From a virus: DNA of 64,000 nucleotides. This document shows, in pieces, positions 9,034-55,512 of this stretch. The stretch covers positions 32,001-96,000 of IMG/VR virus record IMGVR_UViG_3300032334_001937. One strand, 5' to 3'. Each line of letters opens with the position of its first letter. The first letter of the stretch is position 1. The position numbers were made by a program, and so were the translations under genes. The notes under the pieces are model-generated. The model was not told where the DNA came from. It did no database searches and saw only the letters and a program-made list of their open reading frames with translations.

Positions 9034-9595
9034 TTGTCACTTCTTCAATCGTAGAATTAAAAGCACATCCCATACTATATCTTATTCCAGACTTTACATA
9101 ATCTACAGAGTGAAGCTCATCCATTTGATAAAATGCAAAATCTCCAGTTGCTGGCTTATACTTGTAATCTCTTTCTGGAAAAGAAAGTTCTCCACCCTCA
9201 TAATCATCGTTTATGTAGAGCATACAGACAAACCCATTAGAGTTTTCTGTTTTAGAATCTTTATGAGTAGCCATTGGACGATAAGGTTTTAGTTTAGAAA
9301 CTGCAAGAAATGGTTGATATGGGTCTGCATTTAAAAGATTAATTTTTTTAGCATAATCATTCATTGTTAAAGATAAAGCATTAAAGAATAAATTACGTAG
9401 TTCAATTGCCTCTATACTATCTGTGTTAGCAAAATAATTTGGCAGCTCCATGGTTTCATGTGGTCTGCGTTCAACCTTTTGAAATGAATAACAATTTGTA
9501 TCAATCTTATCAATTAAATTAATCCAATGCTGTGTGTCAATATCAACTGAGTATATACTAAGAAAATCATTATTAACCTTATGCACCAAAGACAT
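9026..9595 (-). CDS. 2OG-Fe(II) oxygenase, prolyl-4-hydroxylase-like
   Basis: HKD...YINDDYEGGELSF...LHSV...GIRYS. Confidence 0.85.
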   Translation of the reverse strand: MSLVHKVNNDFLSIYSVDIDTQHWINLIDKIDTNCYSFQKVERRPHETMELPNYFANTDSIEAIELRNLFFNALSLTMNDYAKKINLLNADPYQPFLAVSKLKPYRPMATHKDSKTENSNGFVCMLYINDDYEGGELSFPERDYKYKPATGDFAFYQMDELHSVDYVKSGIRYSMGCAFNSTIEEVTNG

Positions 9596-12446: not shown

Positions 12447-12662
12447 TTACCATTTACCTAGAGGGCATTGTGCATTATTTAACTTTGTTTTAATAAACAT
12501 AAAACAACCACATTGTTTGCATTGTCTACTAAGATTAATAAACTCTGGACAAGATTCACATATATTATATCTTTTTTCTGCAACTTCATGTACAGCATAT
12601 TGTGTATTAGGGTTTAATATATCCCATGGTTTTACACTTTTTTCTTCCATAAATTCCCCCAC
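12447..12662 (-). CDS. six-Cys small protein (DUF6171-like)
   Basis: RYNICESCPEF...CKQCGCFM..KTKL..AQCPLGKW; paralog at 62391..62588. Confidence 0.65.
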   Translation of the reverse strand: MGEFMEEKSVKPWDILNPNTQYAVHEVAEKRYNICESCPEFINLSRQCKQCGCFMFIKTKLNNAQCPLGKW

Positions 12663-12700
12663 AATTAATTTTATACTATCTATTCTATCATAGATACTTT

Positions 12701-12852
12701 TTAGAATCTTGTATCTCTGAAGTACGGTGGTACAAAGTAAGGAGGTGTAACAAAGTCTGGAGGTACAACAAAGTATGGTGGCACAAAGTACGGTGGTACA
12801 AAGTAAGGGAAGTACGGACCGAAGCTTGGTGGGAAGAACGGGAAGAACGGTG
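12701..12852 (-). repeat. Pro/Phe/Tyr coding repeat, copy 1
   Basis: 12786-12852 matches 51847-51913 at 66/67 nt; 12701-12742 matches 51828-51869 at 39/42 nt. Confidence 0.9.
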
Positions 12853-14758
12853 TAACTGCACTACCGCAGCAACTCCATCCATTTGGAACATCAGTATATA
12901 TGTCAGATCCTCCAAGGCGTGTAAGTCCAAGTTCAGAGCATGTAGCATTTGTAGGATTTGTAATTGTTCCTGGGCAAGGGTTTGGTGTAGTAAAAGTTGG
13001 TGGAATTACAAATGTTGGCGGAATAACAAAAGTTGGTGGTGTTGAACCAAATGTTGGCGGAGTTGCTGGAATATAAGAAGTAATGGTTCCTGATGAATAT
13101 TGGCTTCCAGCTCCATATTGATTAGTTCCTTTAGCATAACCAATAAAAATATATGGTGGTGGTGTTGCATCATTTGTAGTTACTGTATAAGAAAGAGTAT
13201 TTGATGCTCCTGAACTTACTGCCTTTAAAACAGTATAAGTTCCCATAGTTGTTCCAGCGTAAATAGAAAGATCGTATGTTGTTACTGGACCTCCAAAATA
13301 TTCTGTAGCTGTCAAAGTAATTGCTGATCCTGCTGCACCAGTTCCACTAAGCACTGGAACCATTATAGGAAGTGAAGGTGGTGCATATTCATAATCATCA
13401 GCATAATATGTGGCTGACCAACCATATGAATTGTATGCAGTAATTTTATAAGTAGCAATATCTCCAGCTACATATGATGGAGACCAAGAGTCTGTTGTTG
13501 AACTTGTAGTATGAGTTACACTAGATTTATATGCCATGCTTTCATTGTATAAAGTCCACTCATATTTATATTGAGTTGGAGAATTTCCCCAGGATCCAGC
13601 ATAGGCAGTTAATGTTCCACCAGAATTTGTAATTTCTTCTTTTGTGCCTGTTGTGTATGGACGCAAATAACTAACTGGAGTTACCCCAACAGTATAAAAA
13701 TCAAAAGAATAAGAGGGAACTGTTTGTGAGGACATTGTGCTTGATTTAGTATCTGATCCTCCTGATAAACCACTTGTTGTATTATATGGTGTAACTGTTA
13801 CGCTTATTGTGTCTCCTGTATTTACTGAGCCTAAAGATATAGAAGTTCCTGTAGTTGTTGTATTTTGAGCTGTTCCACCATTAATAGAATAACTAATTTT
13901 ATATTGGTTTGCATTTGTTGAAGCGCTCCATTGAACTAAAAATGATCCACCAGTTCCAGCATACCCATATACACTTGCGTGTCCAGTTACATAAACTGTA
14001 CTTGAATAATCAATACTTGCAGTAACAGATCCAGCACTTGTATAAGTTTGCGGTGATGTTGGAGAAGTTGTATAATTTAATGTATTACTATCTGCCTCAA
14101 GCAACCATGAAATTACAATTGAAGAAACGTTTGTAAGATTTGACCAAGCCAAAGTAAATGTTCCTGCATTTGCTGACGATGAATATGTGCCTACGTTTGG
14201 AGAAAGCTGACCAGTTCCAGAAGGTATTGGAGTTACGATTAAACCAGTCAGATCTGATGGTGTGCCAATACTAATTGGCAATCCATTACTATCTTCTGTA
14301 GTAGATTCACCATTAATATTTGCTGTTGCTGTTACAGAAAATCTATAATATTGTGTTGTTGCAATAAAATCTGATTCATAAATAGTTAATGTTTTAGTTT
14401 GTCCATTTGATATAGATGCAGAAGTTCCAATGTCTGTCCAATCTACTCCATCAGCTGATATCTGAAAAATATAGGTTTGACTAATTGTTCCTCCACCAGA
14501 ATAAGTCCAGGTTCCGTTTGTTCCAGTCAAAACAAGCCTTTGAATATTTGATACAGTTGTCCAAGGTCCAGCACTGATGGTTGGTACTGTATTAATTTGT
14601 GGACCAGATCCTCCAGACTTTGGCCAAAATGCTCTCCATCCAGAATTTCCTTTTACAAATGCTTTTGTTACAGCATGCCAAGATCCATCAGAACCTTTAA
14701 CAAAAAACTTGGAAACTTTACTCCAAGAACCACCTGCTCCCTTTACAAAATACCCCAT
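12701..14758 (-). CDS. Ig/FN3-like virion accessory fibre protein with C-terminal Pro/Phe/Tyr repeat tag
   Basis: N-terminal triple FVKG..G.W repeat, Thr/Ser/Gly-rich beta domains, PPTF repeats, small Cys motif, tail PFFPFFPPSFGPYFPYFVPPYF...RDTRF; last gene of the tail operon. Confidence 0.7.
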   Translation of the reverse strand: MGYFVKGAGGSWSKVSKFFVKGSDGSWHAVTKAFVKGNSGWRAFWPKSGGSGPQINTVPTISAGPWTTVSNIQRLVLTGTNGTWTYSGGGTISQTYIFQISADGVDWTDIGTSASISNGQTKTLTIYESDFIATTQYYRFSVTATANINGESTTEDSNGLPISIGTPSDLTGLIVTPIPSGTGQLSPNVGTYSSSANAGTFTLAWSNLTNVSSIVISWLLEADSNTLNYTTSPTSPQTYTSAGSVTASIDYSSTVYVTGHASVYGYAGTGGSFLVQWSASTNANQYKISYSINGGTAQNTTTTGTSISLGSVNTGDTISVTVTPYNTTSGLSGGSDTKSSTMSSQTVPSYSFDFYTVGVTPVSYLRPYTTGTKEEITNSGGTLTAYAGSWGNSPTQYKYEWTLYNESMAYKSSVTHTTSSTTDSWSPSYVAGDIATYKITAYNSYGWSATYYADDYEYAPPSLPIMVPVLSGTGAAGSAITLTATEYFGGPVTTYDLSIYAGTTMGTYTVLKAVSSGASNTLSYTVTTNDATPPPYIFIGYAKGTNQYGAGSQYSSGTITSYIPATPPTFGSTPPTFVIPPTFVIPPTFTTPNPCPGTITNPTNATCSELGLTRLGGSDIYTDVPNGWSCCGSAVTPFFPFFPPSFGPYFPYFVPPYFVPPYFVVPPDFVTPPYFVPPYFRDTRF

Positions 14759-43351: not shown

Positions 43352-43981
43352 TTATGAGATCCAGTGGTTTGGAACCATATACTTTAGTCCACTCTTAACA
43401 AGGTGTGCTGTATGATGGTAAGGTGGTGATGGCGGAAATACAATAATGCTTCCTGCTTTTGGTTTTACAGCAAATGTATAATTTCCAGTTCTTTCTGCTT
43501 CAGCAAAATCTGGGGTTGGTCCTGCTTGCTGCAAAATTCCATCAGGAGAAGAAATAGTAAATGATATTTCTCCGCCCTCATAATCATCATTAAGGTACAT
43601 GACAAAAGAAACCTTTAGTCTTTCATCTCCTTCTTGCTGATCAAAGTGAGCGCCCATAAATGTACCAGGTTCATATCTTTTTATTGGGTACATAGGAAAT
43701 AGCTTTGGCTCATCTGTAATTCCTTGTGCAGCTGCATAGTCTTTTGCTACAACATCAAAGGCATCTCTAATTGTATTATAGATATAGTTATTTTTTTCAT
43801 CATCATTCTCTGGAGTATAGATGGTCTTGTCTGTTCCATACACATAGTGCTGTCCACTACAGGCCATCCATTCACCCCAGGGATCTTCATTATCTTTGTC
43901 AATTGCCTCAACAAGTTTTTGAGGGTCTTGAATTACGTTTGTGTAATAGTAGACCTTTTCTTCAAGTATTTCTCTTTCCAT
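43352..43981 (-). CDS. 2OG-Fe(II) oxygenase, P4H-like (Lys type)
   Basis: HFD...YLNDDYEGGEI...HTAH...GLKY. Confidence 0.85.
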   Translation of the reverse strand: MEREILEEKVYYYTNVIQDPQKLVEAIDKDNEDPWGEWMACSGQHYVYGTDKTIYTPENDDEKNNYIYNTIRDAFDVVAKDYAAAQGITDEPKLFPMYPIKRYEPGTFMGAHFDQQEGDERLKVSFVMYLNDDYEGGEISFTISSPDGILQQAGPTPDFAEAERTGNYTFAVKPKAGSIIVFPPSPPYHHTAHLVKSGLKYMVPNHWIS

Positions 43982-43992
43982 TTTATATCTCC

Positions 43993-44652
43993 TTAGTATC
44001 TATTCTTTTCGTAGTGATCTTTTTCTCTAATGAAACCTACTATGACATATCTTATTGGTCCATCACCAACAAATCTTACTCCGTGTTCATATTTTTCAGT
44101 TCCTGGAAAAACCAATAAAGAACCTGGTTTTGGCTTTAGTTCTATGTCAAGATGTTCAAAGAAAAGTTCTCCATCTACATAGTCATCATTTAAATAAAGA
44201 ATTGTTGCATAGCGAATTGAGGGGTCTGTGTGCTGATCTGTATGTGATTTTAATTGAACCTTTTCCTGCATTCTTTGCATAGTTCCAAATCCACCAAGCT
44301 CTAAGCTGTCATCTAATTGTTTAACTAAAGAGTTTACTCTAGTATGAATTGTTCCAGTTACTTCATATTCAGTAATCTGCAAATTTTTATCATTCCAGTT
44401 TTTAGTAATTTCAAACTTACCTTCTGCAACTAAGTTATCAACATCATCTCTTCCAAACTTTTCAAGACAAAATCTTTTTAAGTTTTTTACATACTCTATT
44501 GACCAGTCTTCTTCTGGTCTTGTATTAATAATATCCCATAAAGATGCAAGTTCTTCTTTAGACAAAAAATCCTCTACAAGCAAAATTTCATCGTCAATAT
44601 CTGTACATTTAAAGTTATTTTTTTCAAATGACTCTTTTAAAAAATTAGACAT
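43993..44652 (-). CDS. 2OG-Fe(II) oxygenase, P4H-like (Arg type)
   Basis: HTD...YLNDDYVDGEL...HGV...IRY. Confidence 0.85.
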   Translation of the reverse strand: MSNFLKESFEKNNFKCTDIDDEILLVEDFLSKEELASLWDIINTRPEEDWSIEYVKNLKRFCLEKFGRDDVDNLVAEGKFEITKNWNDKNLQITEYEVTGTIHTRVNSLVKQLDDSLELGGFGTMQRMQEKVQLKSHTDQHTDPSIRYATILYLNDDYVDGELFFEHLDIELKPKPGSLLVFPGTEKYEHGVRFVGDGPIRYVIVGFIREKDHYEKNRY

Positions 44653-45403
44653 TATTCTCCAGATCCTCTATCTTGTACCTATTACCACTAGCATCTATTT
44701 TATACCCTTGTTTGATGAGCTCTTGCCATTCTGCTCTTTCAATCTCTTGCTTTGCCCTAGTTTCTTTCATTTCTGCTGCCCAAGCATCTCTTACCTCTTG
44801 TGGGTATGCAGATTCTTCTCTATCATCCCAGAAAGATCCGATTGTATATCTAATACCCTTGGTGATTAAAGAAACTTCATGCATATTATTAAAACCACCA
44901 TCAAATACTGCAAGCATTCCAACTTTAGGCTTAATTTCTATATCTTGATCTGGAAATTTTAAAAGTCCACCCTCAAAATCATCATTAAGGTATAAAAATC
45001 CTGCATATCTGCTTCTTGTAAATGCTCCAGAATTTCCATGCTCGTCTGTGTTGTCGGAGTGAATTCTTGCATATGCTCCTGGCTCCCATTTTTGAGTATG
45101 ATATCCAATCTTACAAATTGTTTTTGGATCAAGGTCGTGTACTGAAGCAATGGCTTCTGGCATAACTTTCTCAATATCAGAAAACATTGTAGGTGAAAGT
45201 CCAGCATCTAAAACTTCTTGATCATTATCTTGTGGAGTTACAGAAGAATATGATTCATAAAAAGATATTGGCATCCAAGAAAGCTTGCCGTTATGTGCTT
45301 GAGCATCTAGTGCTTGAATCATTTTTTTACAGTTTTCTTCAGAAATAAAGTTTTCGTAAACAACTATATCCTTTGTGATTCTTTTTTTATTATCTAGGTT
45401 CAT
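44645..45403 (-). CDS. 2OG-Fe(II) oxygenase, P4H-like (Arg type)
   Basis: HSD...YLNDDFEGG...HEV...GIRY. Confidence 0.85.
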   Translation of the reverse strand: MNLDNKKRITKDIVVYENFISEENCKKMIQALDAQAHNGKLSWMPISFYESYSSVTPQDNDQEVLDAGLSPTMFSDIEKVMPEAIASVHDLDPKTICKIGYHTQKWEPGAYARIHSDNTDEHGNSGAFTRSRYAGFLYLNDDFEGGLLKFPDQDIEIKPKVGMLAVFDGGFNNMHEVSLITKGIRYTIGSFWDDREESAYPQEVRDAWAAEMKETRAKQEIERAEWQELIKQGYKIDASGNRYKIEDLENNV

Positions 45404-46260
45404 CTTATTCTTCTCTCTTTGTCGGCATTAATTTTATTTGGATTCTTTTTTCTAAATTCTTCCATAATCTCTGACCATTCTTTGGCCCACTCTTCTTTTC
45501 CATAGTCAGCTTCTCTTTTGAGCCACATCTTGTCGCCAACTTCATACTTCATCCAGTACATTCTGGATAGATATTTTTTTGCTCCTCTTGGTGGGAGCAC
45601 TCCATGAATATAAACCTGATCATTTTTAGTCAATACATCTGGGTGGCCAGAAGGGAAAAGTAAGTAATCTCCAGCCTCTGGCTTATACATGTAGGCTTCA
45701 CCATCAACAATAAAATCAATCTCTCCACCCTCATAGTCATCATTAAAGTAAGCTAAAGCAGTTATAGCAAATTTATATCCTGGTGTTACCATTGGTTCTC
45801 TTACGTAGTCGGAATGATATGTCATTGCTACTGGATCTTCTATATCTTCTCTATATCTTGCTATTGACGGCCCATTGGTTTTCCATAATTTTACAGTATC
45901 ACCTTCATGGGTTGTGACCATTGCATCTTTATCAAAATCAACACTATTTCTAGATATATAGTCTTCAGTTGCTAAATAAAAGTTTTCAAAAAGTTCTACC
46001 ATTGCAGCTTTTTGCTCTTCGTCTTTTTCTGTTGCTGCTTCTACACTTTTAATTTCTTCTATGCTCATGGCACCTGGGCAACCTTTAAATAATGGATTAA
46101 GGTACTCTCCAAAACCAGACCATTGTGACCAAGGGCTAAGTATTGCATCTTTATCTTCATCTTTTAGGATTGAGAATGTTTTTGAAATATCTTTAAACAG
46201 ATTTTTATAAACAAATATCTTAGGATATATTTCAATACAGTCTAAAACCTTTTCTTTCAC
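45400..46260 (-). CDS. 2OG-Fe(II) oxygenase, P4H-like (Lys type)
   Basis: HSD...YFNDDYEGGEI...HGV...KKY. Confidence 0.85.
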   Translation of the reverse strand: MKEKVLDCIEIYPKIFVYKNLFKDISKTFSILKDEDKDAILSPWSQWSGFGEYLNPLFKGCPGAMSIEEIKSVEAATEKDEEQKAAMVELFENFYLATEDYISRNSVDFDKDAMVTTHEGDTVKLWKTNGPSIARYREDIEDPVAMTYHSDYVREPMVTPGYKFAITALAYFNDDYEGGEIDFIVDGEAYMYKPEAGDYLLFPSGHPDVLTKNDQVYIHGVLPPRGAKKYLSRMYWMKYEVGDKMWLKREADYGKEEWAKEWSEIMEEFRKKNPNKINADKERRIR

Positions 46261-46931
46261 GGCTTTCTATCTCCCGTATGCTCTGTAATTTCCCAGAAGA
46301 ACGGGCATGTATATCTAATACCACTCTTGATCTCTGTTACTCCATGGATATAGTTTTTATCCCCTGGGAAGAAATATGCTGCACCCTTTTTGGGCTTGAA
46401 CTGTACACCCTGTAATGGGAAGTATAGCTCTCCGCCTTCGTAGTCTTCATTCAAATAGAATAGGCTTGAAAGATCATAGTTTGGGAAATCATTAGGCAAG
46501 CCAGCATCTGGTCCCTCATGAAGTTCTTTATCTGCGTGAGGTTTTTGAAATTGTCCTGGAAGCCATCTAACAATAGTTGTTCCAGTAGGTGTAACCTTTA
46601 CCTTGTAGAACTCTTCAACAATTGGCTTTAGTCTTTGAAACAATCCTGCAATTACAGGAGCAATAGCTGGATCATTTTTATCTAATGTTGGACTAGTCGC
46701 TACTCTGTCTTTCCAATAATCTGAATCGTATACAACAGTTCCGTTTTCATTTACGTGACTCTGTGTTACATCCCAAATAGTTATAGACTTTGCAGCCTTT
46801 TCTAAAAAATCAATTTCTTCTTGTGTCATAAAGTTTTCTAGTTCAATAATCATTTCTTTTCCATTGCCAAACCAGCCCGAAGGGGTCATTGATGGTTTTC
46901 TAACTACTACTGAGGCATCCATATTATCCAT
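46257..46931 (-). CDS. 2OG-Fe(II) oxygenase, P4H-like (Arg type)
   Basis: HAD...YLNEDYEGGEL...HGV...GIRY; leaderless promoter 6 nt upstream. Confidence 0.85.
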   Translation of the reverse strand: MDNMDASVVVRKPSMTPSGWFGNGKEMIIELENFMTQEEIDFLEKAAKSITIWDVTQSHVNENGTVVYDSDYWKDRVATSPTLDKNDPAIAPVIAGLFQRLKPIVEEFYKVKVTPTGTTIVRWLPGQFQKPHADKELHEGPDAGLPNDFPNYDLSSLFYLNEDYEGGELYFPLQGVQFKPKKGAAYFFPGDKNYIHGVTEIKSGIRYTCPFFWEITEHTGDRKP

Positions 46932-46959
46932 AATAGCATTATATCATAGGCAAAAAATC

Positions 46960-47415
46960 CTATAATTCCCTTTCTATTTCTAGTTGTTTTAAAAATCTTT
47001 CTGGATTAAATCTCCAGTTATCTTTTGCAAAAGAAGTTACAATCTTGATACAAACATCTTCATAGTCTTCTTTTTTTAGCTTATTTTTAAGCCCATAAAG
47101 TGCATCAACTGTGTCTATATAGTTTTGCCTAACAAAAGATGGATCTCCCGCATGATTTCTTTTTAGCACTTTTGTTGTAACTTTTCCAGAAGGTTCGTAC
47201 AAAGAAACAGTTAAAAACTCTTTTGCAAAACCAGCATCCTGATACATTTCATATCCTTCTAAAGCTTGGCTTAAGCTATCAAAAGATATAATAGATCTTA
47301 CTGGCTTTTCACCATCTCTGGCAACAGTTATAATGTAATGACTTATTTTACCTAGCTTACAGTTTTCCACATATTCATTGACTATATCTGTGTGTATTGA
47401 GTTTAATTCACTCAT
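46960..47415 (-). CDS. hypothetical protein in modification cluster
   Basis: 151-aa ORF coupled to the upstream gene; no motif recognised. Confidence 0.6.
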   Translation of the reverse strand: MSELNSIHTDIVNEYVENCKLGKISHYIITVARDGEKPVRSIISFDSLSQALEGYEMYQDAGFAKEFLTVSLYEPSGKVTTKVLKRNHAGDPSFVRQNYIDTVDALYGLKNKLKKEDYEDVCIKIVTSFAKDNWRFNPERFLKQLEIEREL

Positions 47416-48128
47416 TATCTACCGTGGCCTGTTTGATCATCTACAAAAAGCTTTAAGGTTTTTACTTCATGAGAACCAAGAGATTCTTGTTTTTCATTAA
47501 CAGCATTTCTGTACCAATCTGTCCACTGACCACCAGAATTTACAACTTGTGCTGCTTCACCATAAGCTTTATTTGCTTCTACTCTTTTTCTATCTTCGTC
47601 CTTATAGTCAAAGATATTAATTACTGTATTGTTTAGGTTAGTCAGTGATATAGGAATCAACGTTGCAATTGGAGTTCCTGCCTTAATAACAACTTTTTTA
47701 TTTGCTACTTTTGCCTTAATTGCTAAGGGTAGTGGGTTATCATAAAAAGATGTACTTATTAAAGAAGACATAGTTTCAAACTCATCACTAAAATAATTTA
47801 CTGGATTAATAGAAAAAATGCTAACGTCTTGATCTGTTTTAAATATTAATCCAGTACTTAAACTTACAGAGGATTGCCCTCTTCCAGAGTATGCTGTTTT
47901 TGGATTAAATATTTCTACACGATCAGGCGTTTGATCATTAACTCCATCCCAAATAAACTCAATGTCTTCTTTGCAGGACAGACTATATCCAATAACATTT
48001 GCCTGTGTTACAGGGAAACATCTATATGCGTGATTTTCAGAAGTTTCATCCATCCAGTCTCTTTTAATTGACATTGAAGATATCTCAAAAATACAGTCTG
48101 GAGTTTTTTCAACTGAAATATTAAACAT
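47415..48128 (-). CDS. DUF6065-like protein (dUTPase-like fold)
   Basis: RDWMDET...HAYRCFPVTQANVIGY and IKAGTPIATLIP motifs. Confidence 0.65.
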   Translation of the reverse strand: MFNISVEKTPDCIFEISSMSIKRDWMDETSENHAYRCFPVTQANVIGYSLSCKEDIEFIWDGVNDQTPDRVEIFNPKTAYSGRGQSSVSLSTGLIFKTDQDVSIFSINPVNYFSDEFETMSSLISTSFYDNPLPLAIKAKVANKKVVIKAGTPIATLIPISLTNLNNTVINIFDYKDEDRKRVEANKAYGEAAQVVNSGGQWTDWYRNAVNEKQESLGSHEVKTLKLFVDDQTGHGR

Positions 48129-48779
48129 TTAGTCTTCTACATACATTTCTGCAGTATGGAACTTTTTGTTGTAGTCAAGCATGGTTACAATAGAATATTT
48201 TGTTCCAGAGTGAACTGGCATTGCCTGGTGTGGATACATAAAGTTTGAAGGGAAGATAAATAGATCTCCTGCTTCTGGCTTTATCTTTAAGTCTTGAAGT
48301 CTAAAGTATAGCTCTCCGCCTTCGTAGTCATCGTTTGGATAAGCAACTAATGATACTGTGCAGTTATAAGAGAACCCATGATCATGGTGCTCCTTAAAGT
48401 GCTGACCTGGACCATACTTAATAAAGTTAAATGCTTCCCAGTACTTTAGCTCTCCCAGATTATAGTCTTTGCAGTAATCCTGTACTGCTGGAGCTTGAAC
48501 ATCATAAACATCTTGCCATAGTGACTGTAGAGCAAGTGACTGTGGGCGTGTATCATGTTCAAGATTTTCCTTCTTAAACTTAAAATCAACACAGTCTCTA
48601 TATTCTGGCATTAGCTGACGGTATCCAACATATGCTGGCAACCAGCTATACTTTGTTTCATCTCCAACTTGGCCTAAGTTAGACTCAAGTCTATTAACAA
48701 CATCAATTTCTTTCTTAATTACATTCTTATAGCAATGAATTCCATTACCAAGATTAACTTTGTCAGTCCAAGTGCTCAT
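48129..48779 (-). CDS. 2OG-Fe(II) oxygenase, P4H-like (Lys type)
   Basis: HHD...YPNDDYEGGEL...PHQA...GTKY; close paralog of 49553..50266. Confidence 0.85.
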   Translation of the reverse strand: MSTWTDKVNLGNGIHCYKNVIKKEIDVVNRLESNLGQVGDETKYSWLPAYVGYRQLMPEYRDCVDFKFKKENLEHDTRPQSLALQSLWQDVYDVQAPAVQDYCKDYNLGELKYWEAFNFIKYGPGQHFKEHHDHGFSYNCTVSLVAYPNDDYEGGELYFRLQDLKIKPEAGDLFIFPSNFMYPHQAMPVHSGTKYSIVTMLDYNKKFHTAEMYVED

Positions 48780-48788
48780 TTTTTCTCC

Positions 48789-49556
48789 TTATTTATATTC
48801 TCTTCTTGTCCAAATTTGATTCTTGTAAACACCACCATCGGGTTTACGATAAAAAGTTGCATTCTCTACCATTTTATCATACATATCTTTTTGATTTAGA
48901 ATTTCAACTTCATTTTCCCAGTTTTCTCTCTTAAACGGTAAGATCTGTACGTATGGAGTTCCAGCTGGGATGGTTCCTTCCCAATCTTGTGCGATAAAGA
49001 ATGGAAGACTTCCAATTAATTCAACCTTATCAGAATCAACAACCCCAGTTGTATTCATGAAAGGAAGATCAAACCTATTCATTGGAGTCATAAATAGTGA
49101 ACTATATCCTTCTGGTAGTCCTAGTGACCATTCTGACTGCCAAGCAAAATGTTCTTTATAGAATCCTTTTGGATGCTCAAACTGTGGCATAGGCGGTCTC
49201 TTAGTACAAAAATCTTTATGCTTTTCATCAACTACCTTAACATCAATTTTTCCATTACTATCTTTAAAAAATTGAATATCACATGGAGTTAGTAAAACAT
49301 AACCAGTTGAAAATCCATCCATAATAGCAGGACATGCTTTCCAGGTAGGAACCTTGCCATAATCATTTGTTGTTCCTTCTTTTGGAAAAGGACAAACCTG
49401 ATTATTTGCTGGAAAGTATTCCCCTGTGTAAGGATTCTTTGCAAATCTATCTGCATCTTTATACCAATCTGGAATTACCTTTTGTGTAGGCAATGGTACA
49501 GAAATACTATCTTTTTTTAACCAAGGACGAAAAGCTTTAAATATTACTTTGTTCAT
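48789..49556 (-). CDS. DUF6065-related / dUTPase-fold protein
   Basis: IPDWYK, TWKACPAIMDGFSTGY, GVVDSD, IPAGTPYVQILPF. Confidence 0.55.
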   Translation of the reverse strand: MNKVIFKAFRPWLKKDSISVPLPTQKVIPDWYKDADRFAKNPYTGEYFPANNQVCPFPKEGTTNDYGKVPTWKACPAIMDGFSTGYVLLTPCDIQFFKDSNGKIDVKVVDEKHKDFCTKRPPMPQFEHPKGFYKEHFAWQSEWSLGLPEGYSSLFMTPMNRFDLPFMNTTGVVDSDKVELIGSLPFFIAQDWEGTIPAGTPYVQILPFKRENWENEVEILNQKDMYDKMVENATFYRKPDGGVYKNQIWTRREYK

Positions 49557-50266
49557 TTATGACTTAACTCATTAATATCTGTCATAATAACAACACAATA
49601 TTTTGTGCCAGATTCCATTGGAAGGGATGCATGCTCATAGATATAGTTTGAAGGGAATACTGCAATATCTCCAACCTTTGGCTTGTATACTAAATTATCA
49701 AGTCTTGGAAACTTTAAGTCTCCTCCAACATAGTCATCATTAATGTAGATAACAGCAGACACTGTGCAGTTATATGCTGGACCGTGATCTGCGTGAATAT
49801 TGAAGTGTGTACCTTCACCCTCATATTTTACAAAATTAAATGCTTCATAGTAAACAACATTAATGCCCCAATAACGTGCATAGTCATCTATACAAACCTT
49901 TAGCTTTTGATAAATCTCTTCATGTAGGTCAACAAGCTCTGCATTTGATTCATCCTTTGGTCCAAGGTCAGATTGCTTGTATTTAAAATCAACACAATCT
50001 CTAGCCTTTTTAATTGGAGTGGTAGAGTTGGTTACTTGAGCTTCATTCCATTTATACTTTTTGCCTCCTGAAAGATTTGACTCAAGCACATTGATATAAC
50101 GCTTTGAGTCTTCTTCAGAAAAAACATTATGGTAAACATTTAGGCCTAATCCTGGATTACTAACAGATATCCCTTTATCAGGCAAGGCTCTTGCTACTCT
50201 GCTAGAAGCAGTCTCTGATCTATCCTTAGTAAACCATGGATTTTCGTTTTCATTATATATATCCAT
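49553..50266 (-). CDS. 2OG-Fe(II) oxygenase, P4H-like (Lys type)
   Basis: HAD...YINDDYVGGDL...EHAS...GTKY. Confidence 0.85.
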   Translation of the reverse strand: MDIYNENENPWFTKDRSETASSRVARALPDKGISVSNPGLGLNVYHNVFSEEDSKRYINVLESNLSGGKKYKWNEAQVTNSTTPIKKARDCVDFKYKQSDLGPKDESNAELVDLHEEIYQKLKVCIDDYARYWGINVVYYEAFNFVKYEGEGTHFNIHADHGPAYNCTVSAVIYINDDYVGGDLKFPRLDNLVYKPKVGDIAVFPSNYIYEHASLPMESGTKYCVVIMTDINELSHK

Positions 50267-50297
50267 TTATCCCCCGTGTAATTTAGCTATATGTAAA

Positions 50298-50329
50298 AGT
50301 ATATCATATAAGAGGAAATACTGTATAAT
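50298..50329. promoter_or_regulatory. back-to-back divergent promoters
   Basis: Minus strand TGATATACT at 50306-50298; plus strand TATAAT at 50324-50329, 6 nt before ATG 50336. Confidence 0.65.
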
Positions 50330-50335
50330 CTTTAT

Positions 50336-51253
50336 ATGAAGACTATATATGTTTCAATAGCAGCATACAATGAGCCACACCTTGACCTTATGCTATCAAA
50401 TTGTTTAGAAAATGCAGAATACCCAGAGCGTGTACATTTTGGAATTTGGTGTCACTATAATGATAATACCAGGCCTAATTTTGATAAATATAAAAATGTA
50501 ATGCATGCATTTACAGATTACCCCGCAATGCTTGGACTTTGTATTGGCAGGTTAAACTCTTTGTCTTTTTATAATGGAGAAGACTATTGCCTTCAACTTG
50601 ATGCTCATATGCTTTTTGAAAAAAATTGGGATACAAAAATAATTAATGCTTTTGAAGAAATAAAAAGGGAACATGAAAAACCAATCATATCAACCTATGT
50701 TCCTTGGTGGTCAATATCAAATAATATAATTAATTATTACAGTAATGATGCAAATGTGTATTGCTCTCCAATGATTATAAATAAAGCTATTGGAAATGGC
50801 GAAGGATACCCAAAACTTACAACAGAACATTTTCCCTGGGATAAAGAGGTTTATAAAGAACATGCACTAGTCACTGGTCATTTTATATTTTCTGAACCAT
50901 CTGTACTTGAAGATGTATCTCCAGATCCACAAGTAATGTTTGGTGGAGATGAAATAACATTAGCATTAAGACTTTGGACAAGAGGCTATAGAATTTTTAC
51001 CATCAAAAATCCAATAGTTTGGCATTTAAATAAATTTGATGGTGATCTATACTCAAAAGATCGTTTAATGAGAGCAGAAACCCCAGGAAGAGAAACAGAG
51101 CTTCATGGCAAAAGAAGTTATACCAGTATGCAAAGAGTAAAAAATATTTTAACTGGTAAAATACTTGGTTATTGGGGAGCTCCAACAATAGAAAAATTAA
51201 AAGAATTTGAAAAAGTAATTGATCTTGATTTTAATAAGTTTTATGAAGGTTAA
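50336..51253 (+). CDS. glycosyltransferase, Skp1 hydroxyproline GlcNAc-transferase (Gnt1/GT60)-like
   Basis: IYVSIAAYNEP...AEYPERVHFGI...GR...YNGEDYCLQLDAHMLFEKNWD...FGGDEITLALRLWTRGY match the GT60-like motif pattern. Confidence 0.75.
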   Translation: MKTIYVSIAAYNEPHLDLMLSNCLENAEYPERVHFGIWCHYNDNTRPNFDKYKNVMHAFTDYPAMLGLCIGRLNSLSFYNGEDYCLQLDAHMLFEKNWDTKIINAFEEIKREHEKPIISTYVPWWSISNNIINYYSNDANVYCSPMIINKAIGNGEGYPKLTTEHFPWDKEVYKEHALVTGHFIFSEPSVLEDVSPDPQVMFGGDEITLALRLWTRGYRIFTIKNPIVWHLNKFDGDLYSKDRLMRAETPGRETELHGKRSYTSMQRVKNILTGKILGYWGAPTIEKLKEFEKVIDLDFNKFYEG

Positions 51254-51819
51254 AGAGCATATTCTTTAGAAGATATCCACATTGGGATAGCATATCTTGT
51301 TTTATTAATTTTATCTATCTCATGAGCAAAAATTTTTCCTTCAGATGGAAAAAATACAAAATCTCCTACTTTTGGATTATACTCAAAATCAGCAAACGGA
51401 AACCTCAATATACCTGTATCCTCTAATGAGTTCAGATATATGATTCCACTGTACATAAACTGTGGATTAATGCCTTTATCTACGTCTTCGTGTAATCGTA
51501 ATACTGATCCTGGACAATGCTTAGAGAACCATAGGTTTGATACTGCTATATCTGTTTTATTATAAAATTTACCTATTTGATTAATTACCCTTGGAAAAAT
51601 TTTATCTTTAAAATAGTGATTAAGATGATTATGCTTGCTAAAGTCTTCAAAAGAGTTTTGAAACAAAAAATCTTTTCCATACTTTAAAGCATATCTTTTA
51701 TTGTTTTGGGTTGATTCAAAAACTTCTAAATTATTTTCAATAAAGTCTATAATGCGAGAAGCCTCATCTTCCGTTATAAAGTTATTTATAACTTGGATGA
51801 GGCCCCCCGACTGACTCAT
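51250..51819 (-). CDS. 2OG-Fe(II) oxygenase, P4H-like (Arg type)
   Basis: HED...IIYLN...AHEI...TRY; starts 8 nt after the stop of the repeat-tailed gene. Confidence 0.8.
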   Translation of the reverse strand: MSQSGGLIQVINNFITEDEASRIIDFIENNLEVFESTQNNKRYALKYGKDFLFQNSFEDFSKHNHLNHYFKDKIFPRVINQIGKFYNKTDIAVSNLWFSKHCPGSVLRLHEDVDKGINPQFMYSGIIYLNSLEDTGILRFPFADFEYNPKVGDFVFFPSEGKIFAHEIDKINKTRYAIPMWISSKEYAL

Positions 51820-51827
51820 GCTACTTC

Positions 51828-52055
51828 TTAGAATCTTGTATCACGGAAGTACGGTGGTACGAAGTAAGGGAAGTACGGACCGAAGCTTGGTGGGAAGAAC
51901 GGGAAGAACGGTGGGAAGAACGGGAAGTACGGGAAGTACGGTGGGAAGAATGGGAAGTACGGTGGGAAGAACGGGAAGTACGGGAAGTACGGTGGGAAGA
52001 ATGGGAAGAATGGAGGGAAGAATGGGAAAAATGGTGGGAAGAATGGAAAGAACGG
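51828..52055 (-). repeat. Pro/Phe/Tyr coding tandem repeat, copy 2
   Basis: Tandem 9- and 12-nt units (plus strand ggaagaacg / ggaagtacg / ggtgggaagaa), all in frame. Confidence 0.9.
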
Positions 52056-52676
52056 TGCAATAGTAGTAACACTAGATGTAGTAGTTGATGCTGAAGTTCC
52101 TAGAGCATTGATAGCAACAATTGTATATGTTTGAGCAGCTGGTGATGCAGCAGAAGGTGTATTATCAGCAGCATCATAGGAAGTTGCTGAACCAGAAATT
52201 CCAGTAAAGTTTCCTCCATCAGATGAAGTAATTGTATATGATGTAATAGCACTACCACCAGTTGCAGGAGCAGTCCAGCTAATCCGATTAAGGTTTGCAG
52301 AAACTGTAGTTGCGCTCACTGACTGTGGTGTTTGTGGTACTGTGGTAATAGCAATTGCAGAAGAAGGATCAGAAGCTTGTGATGTTCCAGCTGCGTTTGT
52401 TGCTGTTACTGTAAAAGTTACAGATGCATTAGCAGTAATACCAGACACAGTAACTGGAGAAGAAGCTCCAGTTCCAGTTTGACCTGTGCTTGCTGTTACT
52501 GTAAAGGATGTTGCAGCAGGGGATAGCACAGGTAAAGAGAAGGAAACAGTTGCTTGACCATCACCATAAGCACGACCTGTTCCTGTATTAGTTGCAGATA
52601 CGCCTGTAGGCTTTAGTGGCTCCAAGAAATCGTTTGATGCCTGGGAGTGTCTTCCTGCTTTTTTACCTGATGCCAT
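51828..52676 (-). CDS. two-FN3-domain protein with 75-aa Pro/Phe/Tyr repeat tail
   Basis: FN3 signatures (PTGVSAT, FTVTATNAAGTS, ISWTAPATGGSAITSY, YTIVAINALG), then (P)P[FY]F repeats ending RDTRF. Confidence 0.8.
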   Translation of the reverse strand: MASGKKAGRHSQASNDFLEPLKPTGVSATNTGTGRAYGDGQATVSFSLPVLSPAATSFTVTASTGQTGTGASSPVTVSGITANASVTFTVTATNAAGTSQASDPSSAIAITTVPQTPQSVSATTVSANLNRISWTAPATGGSAITSYTITSSDGGNFTGISGSATSYDAADNTPSAASPAAQTYTIVAINALGTSASTTTSSVTTIAPFFPFFPPFFPFFPPFFPFFPPYFPYFPFFPPYFPFFPPYFPYFPFFPPFFPFFPPSFGPYFPYFVPPYFRDTRF

Positions 52677-52698: not shown

Positions 52699-55512
52699 TT
52701 ATGCTGTCAAGTCGCCGTAAACAACCCATGTATTTGTAGCTCTCTTGAAAAGAGTTGCAGATGACCATTGAGTTCTTAGCTTTAGACCTGGTGTTGCGTT
52801 TACTGTAACTCCAGTATCTCCTGCGATTGTTACCTGACCTGTTGAAGTCTGAAGGATATCAATTGATGTTCCGACTGGATAAGCAACTGCTGAGTTTGTT
52901 GGAATTGTGATAGTTGTTCCTGATGAAGATGCTACTTCAACAAGGCTATCTCTTTCTGTAAGTGATGAAAGTGTGTATGATGCTGTCTTCTGTACGATTG
53001 GTGTCCGTGAAGGAACGCCTTCCTTTGTCTGTGTACCGTCTGTAAATGCCACTCCAGATGCTGCAACTGTTACAAGACCTGTAAATGTTGGAGCATTGAT
53101 TGGTGACTTAGCAGCAAGGTCAGATGTTAAACCTGAAATCTTTGACTGTGCAATTGCTGCTGATGCGTTTACATCTGCATCTACGATTGCTCCATCAGCG
53201 ATCATTGCTGAAGTAACTCCACCAGTTGCAATATCAAGTGTTCCTGGTGTAGATTCTGTTAGACCAGAACCTGCTGTTACAGCCTTAGCAGCGTTGTATG
53301 CTACGTAGGTAATATTGCTTGAACCAATTGTGATTGCTGATGTGTTAGAACATACGTAACCGTATCCTGCACCAGCTGTACCTTCAAGTACGAGACAGAA
53401 GTCTCCGCCTGCAAGCTCACCTGATGGAGTATTATCTGCATCAGCTGCACGAGACCATGTTGAAGCATTTACAACGTAGATACCGTTTGTCTTCTGGTCT
53501 GTCTGGTCCTTAACAAGAACACGGTCACCAGCAATTACTGATACTCCGTCAATTGTCTGTGTTCCGCTTAGTGTAATATTTGCTGTTGTAGCAACACGAA
53601 CTGGCTGGTGGAAGTTAATTCCAGAAACTACGTTATCAACGTATGCCTTTGTTGCTGCATGTAGGTCTGCTGATGGAGCACCTGCAAGAGTAAGATCTCC
53701 TGTCATTGTTCCGCCAGACTTTGACAACTTAGCATCAAGCTGTGTTTGAATTGCTGATGTTACACCGTCAACATAGCCAATTTCAGTAGCTGAAACATTT
53801 CCAATTGAAGTAGTACTTGGAAGAACTACAGTTCCTGTAAATGTTGGGTCTGCCTTTGGAGCCTTAAGATCAAGTGCTGTCTGTGTAGCAGTTGAAACTG
53901 GCTTATTTGTATCTGATGTGTTGTCAGCATTTCCAAGACCAACATCTGACTTTGTAATACCAGTTGGTGTATTAATAACTGGTGATGTTAAAGTCTTGTT
54001 TGTAAGAGTTTCTGTCTTAGTTGCAGTTGACTTAGCATCAAGCTGTGTCTGGATTGCAGAAGTAACACCATCAAGGTATCCAATTTCTGTGTCAGAAACA
54101 CCTGAAACTACTGCTTGCTTTCCATTAAGCTGTGTTTGGATAGAAGATGTAACTCCATCAACATATCCAAGCTCTGTTGCAGATACTGTTGAAGATACTG
54201 CTAGCTTTGTCCAGTCAATCGCAGCTGATGCATTAATGTCAGCGTTTACGATTGTGTCATTAGCAATCATTGTGCTTGTGACTGTACCTGTATCTGTTGT
54301 TGCAACAAGGTTAGCTGTATTTGAAATTCCGTGAACAGCAGTTGTATCTGAGTTATGTGTGCCAATTGCATCATCAGCATAAGTCTTTGTTGCTACTGTT
54401 GAGTCAATATCAATTGTAAGTGTGTTTGATGCGTCATCGTAGTTATGCTGTAGTCCAGTACCTGAATTTAATGCACCAGCAATTGAGTCAACTGCAAGTT
54501 CACCAACATACTCTGAGTCAATGGCAAAACGATCATTGTCTGCATCCCAAGAAAGTCCTGTACCAACAAGGCCAGGGTAATCATTTGATACTCCACTAAC
54601 AGCACTTGATACATAATCTTGTGTTGCAAGTGTTCCGCTTGCATCTGGAAGTGTAACTGTTCTATCTGCAGTTGGATCTATTACTGAAAGTGTAGTTTCA
54701 AAACCATCTGCTGTTGCACCTTCAAAAATTACCTGGTTATTTACGTTAATAGCTGTGCTGTTTACTGTAGTTGTAGTACCGTTTACAGTTAGGTTACCAG
54801 AAAGTGTTAAATCTGCTGCATTAACAGTACCTGTAAATGTTGGGTTTGCCTTTGGTGCTTTAAGATCAAGAGCTGTTTGTGCAGCTGATGAAACTGGCTT
54901 ATTTGCGTCAGATGTATTATCTACGTTGCCAAGACCTACTGAAGACTTTGTAAGTGCTGCAACTGCAGTTGATACTGCTCCGTCAGCATAAGTCTTTGTA
55001 GCAAGTGCTGAAGTATCAGCGATTCCATGAATATTAGTTGTATCTGCTTCGTGGTTTGAAAGAGCAGTATTTGAAGCCTTTGCATCAAGAGCAGTTTGTG
55101 TTGCTGTTGAGACTGGCTTATTAGCATCTGAAGTATTGTCTACATTGCCAAGTCCAACGTGTGACTTTGTAACACCAGAAACTGTTCCTGTAAATGTTGG
55201 GTTAGCCTTTGGAGCCTTAAGGTCAAGGCTTGTTGAAAGTGTTGTAAAGAATGCTGGATCATCATTGATTGCTGCTGCAAGTTCATTAAGAGTATTTAAT
55301 GCTCCTGGTGCTCCATCAATAAGGTCATTAATTCCTGCAAGTGCACTTTCAGCATCTGTGAAGTAAGTAAGGTCAGCCCAGTGATTTGTGCCATCACCAA
55401 TCTTAAATTTATTTGTGTCTGATTCCCAGCCGATTTCTCCTGCGTTGAGAATTGGGTTAGCGCCTGACCACTGTGATGCGGTTCCTCTGCGCTGTTGCAT
55501 TCTAGTTGCCAT
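52699..55512 (-). CDS. long fibre protein (Mtd/hyaluronidase-like N terminus, internal repeats)
   Basis: MQQRRGTASQW..ANPIL..GEIGWESDT.KFKIGDG; 3x VGLGNxDNTSDxNKPVS, 3x KAPKAxPTFTG, 3x ExGYxDGVTSxIQTQL. Confidence 0.8.
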   Translation of the reverse strand: MATRMQQRRGTASQWSGANPILNAGEIGWESDTNKFKIGDGTNHWADLTYFTDAESALAGINDLIDGAPGALNTLNELAAAINDDPAFFTTLSTSLDLKAPKANPTFTGTVSGVTKSHVGLGNVDNTSDANKPVSTATQTALDAKASNTALSNHEADTTNIHGIADTSALATKTYADGAVSTAVAALTKSSVGLGNVDNTSDANKPVSSAAQTALDLKAPKANPTFTGTVNAADLTLSGNLTVNGTTTTVNSTAINVNNQVIFEGATADGFETTLSVIDPTADRTVTLPDASGTLATQDYVSSAVSGVSNDYPGLVGTGLSWDADNDRFAIDSEYVGELAVDSIAGALNSGTGLQHNYDDASNTLTIDIDSTVATKTYADDAIGTHNSDTTAVHGISNTANLVATTDTGTVTSTMIANDTIVNADINASAAIDWTKLAVSSTVSATELGYVDGVTSSIQTQLNGKQAVVSGVSDTEIGYLDGVTSAIQTQLDAKSTATKTETLTNKTLTSPVINTPTGITKSDVGLGNADNTSDTNKPVSTATQTALDLKAPKADPTFTGTVVLPSTTSIGNVSATEIGYVDGVTSAIQTQLDAKLSKSGGTMTGDLTLAGAPSADLHAATKAYVDNVVSGINFHQPVRVATTANITLSGTQTIDGVSVIAGDRVLVKDQTDQKTNGIYVVNASTWSRAADADNTPSGELAGGDFCLVLEGTAGAGYGYVCSNTSAITIGSSNITYVAYNAAKAVTAGSGLTESTPGTLDIATGGVTSAMIADGAIVDADVNASAAIAQSKISGLTSDLAAKSPINAPTFTGLVTVAASGVAFTDGTQTKEGVPSRTPIVQKTASYTLSSLTERDSLVEVASSSGTTITIPTNSAVAYPVGTSIDILQTSTGQVTIAGDTGVTVNATPGLKLRTQWSSATLFKRATNTWVVYGDLTA

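What the first reader, a model, noticed from the sequence alone, without database searches (positions are those of the whole stretch)
12701..12852. The same C-terminal tag (PFFPFFPPSFGPYFPYFVPPYF...RDTRF) on a second virion protein 39 kb away, with near-identical DNA
SEEN: 12786-12852 matches 51847-51913 at 66/67 nt including synonymous positions, and the last 42 nt of the two genes match at 39/42. The rest of the two proteins (685 and 282 aa) shows no comparable identity. One tail expands PFF/PPYF units and the other expands VPPYF units, but both end exactly in YFRDTRF-stop. INFERENCE: this is a portable module kept similar by recent duplication or gene conversion. It would route a second (tail) protein into the same modification pathway, with RDTRF as a conserved recognition, anchoring or processing signal.
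Basis: partly seen in the sequence, partly recalled or inferred. Interest (0 to 1): 0.85.

Follow-up and report, generated by a model that had tools for sequence, protein, structure and literature searches.

The report
Shared end-piece on two phage fibre proteins
Two unrelated tail-fibre-region proteins of an uncultured 112-kb lake phage end in the same proline/aromatic tail and five-residue cap because the DNA was copied between the genes. In related phages the cap differs from phage to phage but tends to match among the fibre proteins of one phage, so it is a selected, swappable end-piece rather than a universal signal.

Summary
In detail: 12786-12852 matches 51847-51913 at 66/67 nt. With one 66-nt gap, 88/92 nt match, including the stop codon and 6 bases beyond it. 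The rest of the two proteins (685 aa and 282 aa) is unrelated.

It is patchy gene conversion between two members of a phage-only family of "Pro/Phe-tailed" fibre-region proteins found on more than 400 viral contigs.
- The sister lineage carries the cap [ST]DPRK on every carrier seen. This phage and one independent assembly carry RDTRF. The five derived base changes are present in both genes here.
- In 10 related genomes with two carriers, a protein's own partner is the best cap match in 7 (permutation p<1e-5).
- Where the shared caps are old, synonymous sites are saturated but the peptide is kept (pN/pS 0-0.27).

RDTRF itself is not conserved. Other phages use Cys-rich caps, a self-cleaving intein-like (Hint) domain, or other short ends. 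The hydroxylase-like gene array is 70-95% identical across phages with unlike caps, so the cap is unlikely to be its recognition signal; the repeat is the likelier shared handle.

No chemistry, location or function has been shown. This scan has already noted the Pro/Phe-tail-plus-hydroxylase family on about ten other genomes. What is new here is the cap co-variation between proteins of one phage.

The parts
12701..14758 (-). 685-aa fibre-like protein. It is the last gene of the tail module, after the tape measure gene, a 1461-aa minor tail protein and a 1104-aa protein.
   Evidence: ORF. Gene order. The 1461-aa neighbour matches PHROG minor tail protein. The N-terminal W..K repeat motif is shared with second carriers in relatives.
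12704..12850 (-). C-terminal Pro/aromatic tail of the 685-aa protein (residues 637-685): PFF and VPPYF units followed by the cap RDTRF.
12786..12852 (.). Conversion block 1, 66/67 nt identical to 51847-51913. It encodes a 22-residue stretch that begins with the FN3-family motif PPSFG and ends with the 685-family units PYFPYFVPPYF.
   Evidence: (D7). The same block is present on lineage-B FN3 orthologues P0022 and P0025 and absent from lineage-B 685-like proteins. This suggests copying from the FN3 gene into the 685-aa gene.
12720..12785 (-). 66-nt segment of VPPYF/VPPDF units found only in the 685-aa gene, bounded by a 14-nt direct repeat (12720-12733 and 12786-12799). It accounts for the only gap between the two copies.
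   Evidence: The homologous VPPDF..VTPPYFVPPYF segment is present in the 78%-identical orthologue L083.
12695..12733 (.). Terminal conversion patch: 14-nt repeat, cap codons (RDTRF), stop codon and 6 nt of 3' flank. It is 36/39 identical to 51822-51860. The first Arg codon is AGA here and CGT in the other gene.
   Evidence: (D10).
12863..13060 (-). Upstream elements of the same protein: PPTF repeats (12983-13060) and a 5-Cys mini-domain (12863-12982) directly before the tail.
   Evidence: The NGW.C motif recurs in second carriers of relatives.
51828..52676 (-). 282-aa protein with a conserved N-terminal peptide, two FN3 domains and a 75-residue Pro/Phe/Tyr tail ending in RDTRF.
   Evidence: Pfam fn3. 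AlphaFold2 gives two beta-sandwich domains at pLDDT above 90 and a tail at pLDDT 43-63 with no secondary structure. More than 400 viral contigs encode relatives.
51831..52055 (-). Tail of the FN3 protein (residues 208-282), built from 9-, 12- and 21-nt DNA units.
   Evidence: (D1).
51822..51913 (.). The 92-nt stretch shared with the 685-aa gene (block 1 plus the terminal patch).
52699..55512 (-). 937-aa tail fibre (Mtd_N domain) directly upstream of the FN3 gene.
   Evidence: Pfam, PHROGs. A homologue lies upstream in 79 of 80 related loci.
43352..51819 (.). Array of eight 2OG-Fe(II) oxygenase (prolyl-hydroxylase-like) genes, a DUF6065 gene, and a PF11397 GlcNAc-transferase gene (50336-51253, + strand), directly downstream of the FN3 gene.
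   Evidence: The array follows the FN3 gene in 71 of about 72 loci that have downstream DNA. The transferase is in 0 of 80 loci but is present in the lineage-B contig L123.

Best explanation
The 152-nt stretch is the 3' end of a tail-fibre-like gene. It encodes an extended, non-globular stalk of (P/PP)[FY]F and VPPYF units that ends in a five-residue cap. The same stalk-plus-cap end sits on the FN3 protein encoded behind the second fibre cluster 39 kb away.

The two ends are alike because of recent, patchy, non-reciprocal recombination (gene conversion). The repetitive tail DNA supplied the homology. One patch moved the FN3-type block into the 685-aa gene. Another spread a newly derived cap, with its stop codon and flank, from one gene to the other. 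The copies are direct repeats around essential genes, so only conversion is viable, not crossing-over.

Across the phage family the stalk is a modular linker and the cap is a swappable end-piece: a short charged peptide, a Cys-rich knot or a self-cleaving Hint domain. Selection tends to keep the cap the same on the fibre-region proteins of one phage.

Inferred: both proteins are anchored to the virion by their N-termini and present the tail outward. The shared repeat makes both proteins potential substrates of the hydroxylase-like array. The matched cap serves a common, phage-specific partner step, such as docking, cross-linking, assembly or processing, rather than enzyme recognition.

My odds: gene conversion of a portable module about 0.9; the cap is under selection to match about 0.7; the tail is a shared substrate of the oxygenases about 0.45.
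For: Conversion in this genome:
- 88/92 nt are identical across one 66-nt gap bounded by 14-nt direct repeats, including the stop codon and 6 nt beyond it.
- The flanks and the protein bodies are unrelated.

Sister lineage B:
- It has [ST]DPRK on 688-aa, 620-aa and 683-693-aa 685-like proteins, on 282-aa FN3 proteins and on two small FN3 proteins.
- This genome and the independent assembly P0001 have RDTRF. The caps differ by 5 nonsynonymous and 0 synonymous changes in 5 codons. The derived state is in both genes here.

Co-variation across genomes:
- Genome-specific caps are shared by two different carriers in G002, G003, G005, G006 and G016 as well as here.
- The own partner is the best match in 7 of 10 genomes, p<1e-5.

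Selection on the cap:
- Shared caps show pS of 0.5-1.0 with pN/pS of 0-0.27. The paired Hint caps give pS 0.74 and pN 0.10 over 172 codons.
- Here the first Arg codon is AGA in one gene and CGT in the other, which is reachable by two synonymous steps.

Stalk as a linker:
- AlphaFold2 gives the tail no structure.
- In relatives the Pro/Phe tract is internal, or is followed by a PT linker and then the cap. 685-family members P0029 and P0030 use PV- or T-rich linkers plus Cys caps.

Context:
- The order fibre, FN3-tail gene, oxygenase array is conserved.
- The tail is phage-specific: there are 7 hits among 185,579 species genomes, all on short contigs of aquatic (mainly lake) MAGs assigned to six different bacterial lineages.
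Against: - Matching is not universal. G015 (Hint cap vs Cys cap), G007 and G021 are discordant.
- In this genome the shared part is short and recent, so hitch-hiking with repeat-driven conversion cannot be excluded for RDTRF itself.
- The two tails here differ in unit composition (4-mer cosine 0.43), so they may not be equivalent substrates.
- The lineage-B carriers come from several contigs that have not been shown to be one genome.
- No independent assembly of the 685-aa gene with RDTRF was found.
- No hydroxylation, glycosylation, virion location or binding partner has been shown.
Confidence: 0.6

Rival explanations
1. The cap is the receptor-binding tip. The Pro/aromatic stalk presents a small terminal knob to the host surface. 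Caps vary between phages because hosts differ, and they match within a phage because both fibres address the same receptor.
For: - The caps sit at the C-terminal, probably distal, end of fibre-region proteins whose N-termini are conserved.
- Cap diversity between phages is extreme.
- The A/B lineage switch is a burst of 5 nonsynonymous and 0 synonymous changes.
Against: - In many relatives the cap is a Hint domain with its catalytic Cys directly after the tail and a terminal His-Asn. Such a domain should cut itself off and cannot be the mature tip.
- A five-residue cap is very small for a binding site.
- No receptor data exist.
Confidence: 0.2
2. The cap is the recognition or processing signal of the adjacent hydroxylase/glycosyltransferase pathway.
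For: - The FN3-tail gene is always next to the oxygenase array.
- The GlcNAc-transferase plus extra oxygenase cassette occurs only in lineages A and B, which have the x-D-x-R-x type caps.
Against: - Oxygenase paralogues are 70-95% identical between phages whose caps are unrelated: Cys-rich, Hint or short.
- RDTRF is absent elsewhere.
- The co-occurrence with the transferase rests on a single clade.
Confidence: 0.1
3. The cap identity is a neutral by-product. Repeat-driven gene conversion sweeps the short 3' end along, and the cap has no function of its own.
For: - The tract here includes non-coding bases after the stop codon.
- Repeat DNA gives ample homology.
- Some genomes are discordant.
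Against: - In other genomes the shared caps have saturated synonymous divergence but conserved peptides.
- [ST]DPRK is kept with synonymous variation across five carrier types.
- The Arg codon is AGA in one gene and CGT in the other.
Confidence: 0.1
4. The duplicated end is an assembly artefact, or it is a diversity-generating retroelement template/variable repeat pair.
For: - Repeats invite misassembly.
- An Mtd_N fibre lies next to one copy.
Against: - The flanks on both sides are unique, and the copies differ by a 66-nt indel and 4 substitutions.
- An independent assembly (P0001) has the same FN3 end.
- Analogous pairs occur in many independent assemblies.
- The complete genome has no reverse transcriptase.
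- Both copies are coding, and the mismatches are not adenine-specific.
Confidence: 0.02

Closest known systems
Mosaic tail-fibre genes and repeat-mediated exchange of receptor-binding modules. Examples are the collagen-like repeats flanking the variable region of Streptococcus thermophilus phage host-specificity genes, and tail-fibre C-terminal exchange among P2, Mu, P1 and lambdoid phages (from my own knowledge, not checked in papers here).
   Same: - The identity is at DNA level and confined to the 3' part of otherwise unrelated fibre genes.
- Low-complexity repeats serve as the recombination substrate.
- The exchanged unit is a C-terminal module.
   Different: - The exchange here is between two genes of one genome, with concerted evolution across many genomes.
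- The repeat is a Gly-free Pro/Phe/Tyr polymer.
- The exchanged end-piece can be as small as five residues.
Chlorovirus PBCV-1 prolyl 4-hydroxylase and that virus's Pro-rich repeat proteins (Eriksson et al. 1999, as cited in PMC7019647).
   Same: One virus encodes both P4H-type enzymes and proteins with Pro-rich repeats that are candidate substrates.
   Different: - This is a phage with eight or more paralogues in an array.
- The repeats are Pro plus aromatic residues.
- Even in PBCV-1 no hydroxyproline was detected in virions (PMC7019647).
- Nothing has been shown here.
Bacterial intein-like (BIL/Hint) domains, e.g. PDB 2LWY.
   Same: - In relatives (G003, G015 and P0004-P0006) the cap is a Hint domain. 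A profile of these caps hits 2LWY at E=2.6e-6 and also hits inteins.
- The catalytic Cys follows the tail directly, and the domain ends in His-Asn.
   Different: This genome has no Hint cap, and Pfam scores in the relatives lie just below the curated cut-off (33 vs 35.8 bits).
C-terminal intramolecular chaperone domains of tailspikes and fibres (endosialidase type, Peptidase_S74), and minicollagens with polyproline plus Cys-rich end domains (from my own knowledge).
   Same: - Both are portable C-terminal end-modules on fibrous proteins, some self-cleaving and some Cys-rich cross-linkers.
- In minicollagens a polyproline stretch adjoins a Cys-rich cap.
   Different: - There is no Pfam match to either family.
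- The tail has no Gly-X-Y repeat.
- The resemblance is architectural only.
Tandem dioxygenase array of Synechococcus phage Syn9
   Same: Multiple 2OG-Fe(II) oxygenase paralogues in tandem in a phage.
   Different: No matched Pro/aromatic-tailed substrate genes, and no shared cap, have been described there to my knowledge.

Membership tests
Intragenomic gene conversion between paralogous 3' modules | Nucleotide identity is well above that needed for the peptide and extends into non-coding flank, while the rest of the genes are unrelated. | tested here: met
   88/92 nt match, including the stop codon and 6 nt beyond. Codon identity is 20/22 against 10-14 expected. BLASTP finds nothing elsewhere.
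Intragenomic gene conversion between paralogous 3' modules | A derived state is shared by the paralogues of one lineage and differs from the state in the sister lineage. | tested here: met
   RDTRF is on both genes here. [ST]DPRK is on all carriers of lineage B.
Diversity-generating retroelement (template/variable repeat) | A reverse transcriptase gene is present in the element or genome. | tested here: not met
   PF00078 gives 0 matches in the complete 112-kb genome, and the search's controls rang.
Diversity-generating retroelement (template/variable repeat) | The differences between the copies are confined to adenines of a non-coding template. | tested here: not met
   Both copies are coding gene ends. 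The mismatches are T/C, AGA/CGT and A/G.
Sortase/exosortase-type C-terminal sorting signal | A short motif, then a helical hydrophobic membrane span, then a basic cluster. | tested here: not met
   There is a Pro every 3-4 residues, and AlphaFold2 predicts no helix. Only the hydrophobic-then-basic order resembles the signal. Sortase genes were not searched for.
Collagen-like triple-helix repeat | Gly at every third residue. | tested here: not met
   The units are PFF, PPFF, PPYF and VPPYF. The whole tail has one Gly.
Hint / bacterial intein-like cap | A Hint-fold domain with an N-terminal Cys and a terminal His-Asn after the tail. | tested here: not met
   It is absent from both proteins of this genome. 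It is present in relatives.
Viral P4H substrate (PBCV-1 type) | Pro-rich repeats and P4H-type enzymes are encoded by the same virus. | tested here: met
   Eight PF13640 paralogues lie next to the FN3-tail gene. The synteny holds in 71 of about 72 loci.
Viral P4H substrate (PBCV-1 type) | Hydroxyproline is demonstrated in the protein. | not testable with these tools
   This needs mass spectrometry of virions or of co-expressed proteins.
C-terminal intramolecular chaperone domain (Peptidase_S74) | A match to the family profile at the C-terminus. | tested here: not met
   No Pfam hit in either protein or in seven second carriers.

The most novel reading that the evidence does not exclude
The cap is a phage-specific C-terminal "address". 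A partner encoded by the same phage reads it, so that several different fibre-region proteins are docked, cross-linked or processed together. Disulfide caps, thioester-forming Hint caps and short charged caps would be alternative chemistries for the same step. This would be a previously unknown assembly code for virion appendages, riding on a hydroxylated Pro/aromatic stalk.
Probability: 0.25. Interest if true: 0.8.

Novelty: new variant of a known kind. Interest (0 to 1): 0.6.

Why it matters
Phage oxygenase arrays have had no known substrate, and the Pro/Phe-tailed proteins are the best candidates. This finding shows that the tail is a transferable module present on more than one fibre protein per phage. 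It also shows that its end-piece evolves in concert within a phage and diverges between phages. That yields clear experiments: cap exchange between the RDTRF and [ST]DPRK lineages, assays with and without the cap, and testing of both carriers as substrates. It also provides a natural example of repeat-driven gene conversion shaping phage appendages.

Tried and rejected
- tblastn of both proteins against 50,697 deposited phage genomes found no match, so there is no cultured relative to lean on.
- An exact degenerate search for the PYFRDTRF-stop end in IMG/VR gave 0 hits. My first own-genome pattern missed the sites because it allowed only CGN Arg codons; the corrected pattern found both.
- PHROGs has nothing for either carrier.
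- The diversity-generating retroelement idea was rejected because there is no reverse transcriptase.
- A parallel single-step origin of the first Arg from lineage-B Ser/Thr codons was rejected, because the Ser codon is TCA.
- The test of block 1 (1/67 mismatches) against the terminal patch (3/25) as separate events is only suggestive (Fisher p=0.06).
- Repeat-unit composition matches within genomes only weakly: the own partner is best in 3 of 10 genomes, p=5e-4.
- Literature searches found no description of such tails.
I therefore could not fetch the 110-kb contig of P0001 to check its 685-aa orthologue, nor link the lineage-B carriers to one genome.
- The genome-collection scan gave only mis-binned MAG contigs and no host clue.

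Full report
**Observation**

The window is bases 32001-96000 of a complete 112,019-bp virus record with direct terminal repeats. Its GC content is 37%.

- 12786-12852 matches 51847-51913 at 66/67 nt.
- The gene ends, 12695-12742 and 51822-51869, match at 44/48.
- BLASTP finds no other similarity between the proteins.
- These are the only two FRDTRF-stop sites in the genome.

Read codon by codon, the FN3 gene's end equals the 685-aa gene's end minus 66 nt (12720-12785). That segment is bounded by two copies of a 14-nt direct repeat. Across this single gap, 88/92 nt agree, including the stop codon and 6 bases after it. Homology stops abruptly on both sides. Codon identity in the 22-codon block is 20/22, against 14.5 expected from the tails' own biased usage (P=0.003) and 10.4 expected from whole-gene usage (P=2e-5).

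**What the carriers are**

The 685-aa gene closes the tail module. It follows the tape measure gene, a 1461-aa protein that matches PHROG minor tail protein, and a 1104-aa protein.

The 282-aa protein has two FN3 domains. AlphaFold2 models both at pLDDT above 90. Residues 207-282 have pLDDT 43-63 and no secondary structure. The gene lies directly behind a 937-aa Mtd_N tail fibre. It lies in front of eight 2OG-Fe(II) oxygenase (PF13640) genes, a DUF6065 gene and a PF11397 GlcNAc-transferase gene.

**The family**

More than 400 IMG/VR contigs encode relatives of the FN3 protein.
- In 79 of 80 fetched loci a homologue of the fibre is upstream.
- In 71 of about 72 loci with downstream DNA the oxygenase array follows.
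- The transferase is in none of the 80 loci.
- All complete orthologues carry a (P/PP)[FY]F tract, but what follows it differs widely. There are many Cys-rich caps, short ends such as FRGY, RFGFRY or PRAT, and a roughly 165-residue domain ending in His-Asn-Lys.
- A profile of that domain hits the bacterial intein-like domain 2LWY (E=2.6e-6) and inteins. Pfam Intein_splicing scores 33 bits against a cut-off of 35.8. Its Cys follows the tail directly.
- The tail-coding pattern occurs in only 7 contigs among 185,579 species genomes. All are short contigs of aquatic (mainly lake) MAGs assigned to six different bacterial lineages, so they are probably mis-binned phage.

**Second carriers and cap co-variation**

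Pattern searches of large related contigs found a second, unrelated tail-bearing protein in many genomes. The regions were fetched, and the caps were read.

|---|---|
| G005 | Both have a ..CGYCWRC.. Cys-rich cap |
| G006 | Both end in FRGY |
| G002 | Both end in PPRFGFRY |
| G003 | Both have the Hint domain behind the same junction |
| G016 | Both have a ..CYAPY.. Cys-rich cap |
| G009 | Both are Cys-rich but only weakly alike |
| G015, G007, G021 | Discordant, or the Pro/Phe tract is internal |

Scoring the last 20 residues, a protein's own partner is the best match in 7 of 10 genomes. Shuffling the partners never reached the observed total in 100,000 trials.

These shared caps are not recent copies.

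| Pair | Synonymous vs nonsynonymous divergence |
|---|---|
| G005 cap | pS 0.76, pN 0.13 |
| G002 cap | 3 synonymous, 0 nonsynonymous differences |
| G016 cap | pS 0.97, pN 0.26 |
| G003 Hint pair (172 codons) | pS 0.74, pN 0.10 |

The cap peptide is therefore maintained by purifying selection in both carriers.

**The sister lineage**

The only IMG/VR relative of the 685-aa protein is L083 (78% identity). It keeps the VPPDF..VTPPYFVPPYF segment but ends in TDPRK. A search for that end found three further contigs.
- A 620-aa 685-like protein ends in TDPRK.
- One contig carries fibre, two small FN3 proteins ending in TDPRK and SDPRK, an oxygenase and the transferase. This is the same cassette as in the present genome.
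- A 282-type FN3 protein ends in SDPRK.

Protein searches added more members.
- FN3 orthologues P0002 and P0022-P0025 end in SDPRK. Two of them carry exactly the block-1 peptide.
- The 685-like proteins P0026-P0028 end in TDPRK or SDPRK.
- P0001, from independent assemblies, ends in RDTRF like the present genome.

The two caps are homologous at DNA level and differ by 5 nonsynonymous and 0 synonymous changes in 5 codons. The derived state is present in both genes here together with a shared 3' flank, so it must have been copied from one gene to the other.

Block 1 contains the FN3-family motif PPSFG, and lineage-B 685-like proteins lack it. That patch therefore most likely moved from the FN3 gene into the 685-aa gene. 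The first Arg codon differs between the two genes (AGA vs CGT), a change reachable through two synonymous steps. This fits an older terminal patch kept under peptide selection. The difference in mismatch density between the patches is only suggestive (p=0.06).

**Interpretation**

Shown:
- The end is a portable module.
- Gene conversion has acted in this genome.
- Caps differ between phages, co-vary within phages and are under purifying selection.
- RDTRF is not conserved outside this lineage.

Inferred:
- The Pro/aromatic tract is an extended stalk or linker. In relatives it can be internal, can be followed by PT linkers, and in the 685 family is replaced by PV- or T-rich linkers.
- The cap is the functional end-piece.

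The oxygenase paralogues are 70-95% identical between phages with unrelated caps. The cap is therefore unlikely to be what those enzymes read. The repeat is the common element, so the second protein is a plausible but unproven co-substrate. In this genome the two tails differ in unit make-up.

The Hint-capped relatives suggest that caps act at an assembly, processing or attachment step and may be removed. The main rival is a receptor-tip role.

**Rejected readings**

- Diversity-generating retroelement: no reverse transcriptase.
- Assembly artefact: an independent assembly and analogous pairs in many other assemblies argue against it.
- Collagen-type helix: there is no Gly periodicity.
- Sorting signal: no helix is possible or predicted.

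**Relation to earlier notes of this scan**

The Pro/Phe-tail plus hydroxylase family, including Hint caps and one case of a shared module on two proteins, has already been noted on about ten other genomes and on this one. I re-tested the synteny and the Hint assignment myself. The new result is the systematic cap co-variation, its selection signature and the reconstruction of the conversion history.

**Limits**

- The sample of two-carrier genomes is small.
- Nothing biochemical is known.

Noticed in passing
L086:808-2073, L116:4063-6090, L040:6001-7296 (relatives); P0004-P0006, P0016, P0019: Many orthologues replace the short cap by a roughly 165-residue Hint / bacterial intein-like domain. 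Its Cys follows the Pro/Phe tail directly, and most copies end in His-Asn. Two co-resident copies in G003 are under purifying selection (pS 0.74, pN 0.10).
   Followed up: partly
window 50336-51819; L123:2-1029: The PF11397 (Skp1-type Hyp GlcNAc-transferase family) gene and the adjoining 189-aa oxygenase form a cassette. It is absent from 80 related loci and present only in this lineage and its [ST]DPRK sister lineage.
   Followed up: partly
window 9026-9595 (-): A further distant 2OG-oxygenase-like gene lies between the primase and DnaB genes, 34 kb from the array. It shares the 39-nt ..NDDYEGGEL.. repeat family D3 and matches the 51250-51819 paralogue at E=4e-7. Pfam does not recognise it.
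   Followed up: partly
window 12447-12662 (-): A 71-aa Cys-rich protein (DUF6171, 27 bits, at the cut-off) is encoded 39 nt downstream of the 685-aa gene. Whether it relates to the tail is unknown.
   Followed up: no
L125-L131 (genome contigs): Pro/Phe-tail coding DNA occurs on short contigs of MAGs labelled Luteolibacter, Bacteroidetes, Lishizhenia, Beijerinckiaceae, Acidimicrobiaceae and Chitinophagaceae. These are most likely phage contigs mis-binned into the MAGs, so they give no host evidence.
   Followed up: no
P0029, P0030 (685-family proteins); L117:14561-16138, L118:4126-6303: Fibre proteins of the same N-terminal family use PV-, T- or PT-rich linkers plus Cys-rich caps instead of, or in addition to, the Pro/Phe tract. 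Linker and cap therefore appear to be independent modules.
   Followed up: partly
window 52699-55512 (-): The Mtd_N tail fibre contains several internal direct-repeat families (D2, D4, D5; 55-130 nt, 60-87% identity). This indicates a repetitive shaft.
   Followed up: no
L111:13016-13891, L120:5554-6447: In G007 and G021 a third protein carries the Pro/Phe tract internally, between FN3-like domains. The tract is therefore not always a terminal tag.
   Followed up: no
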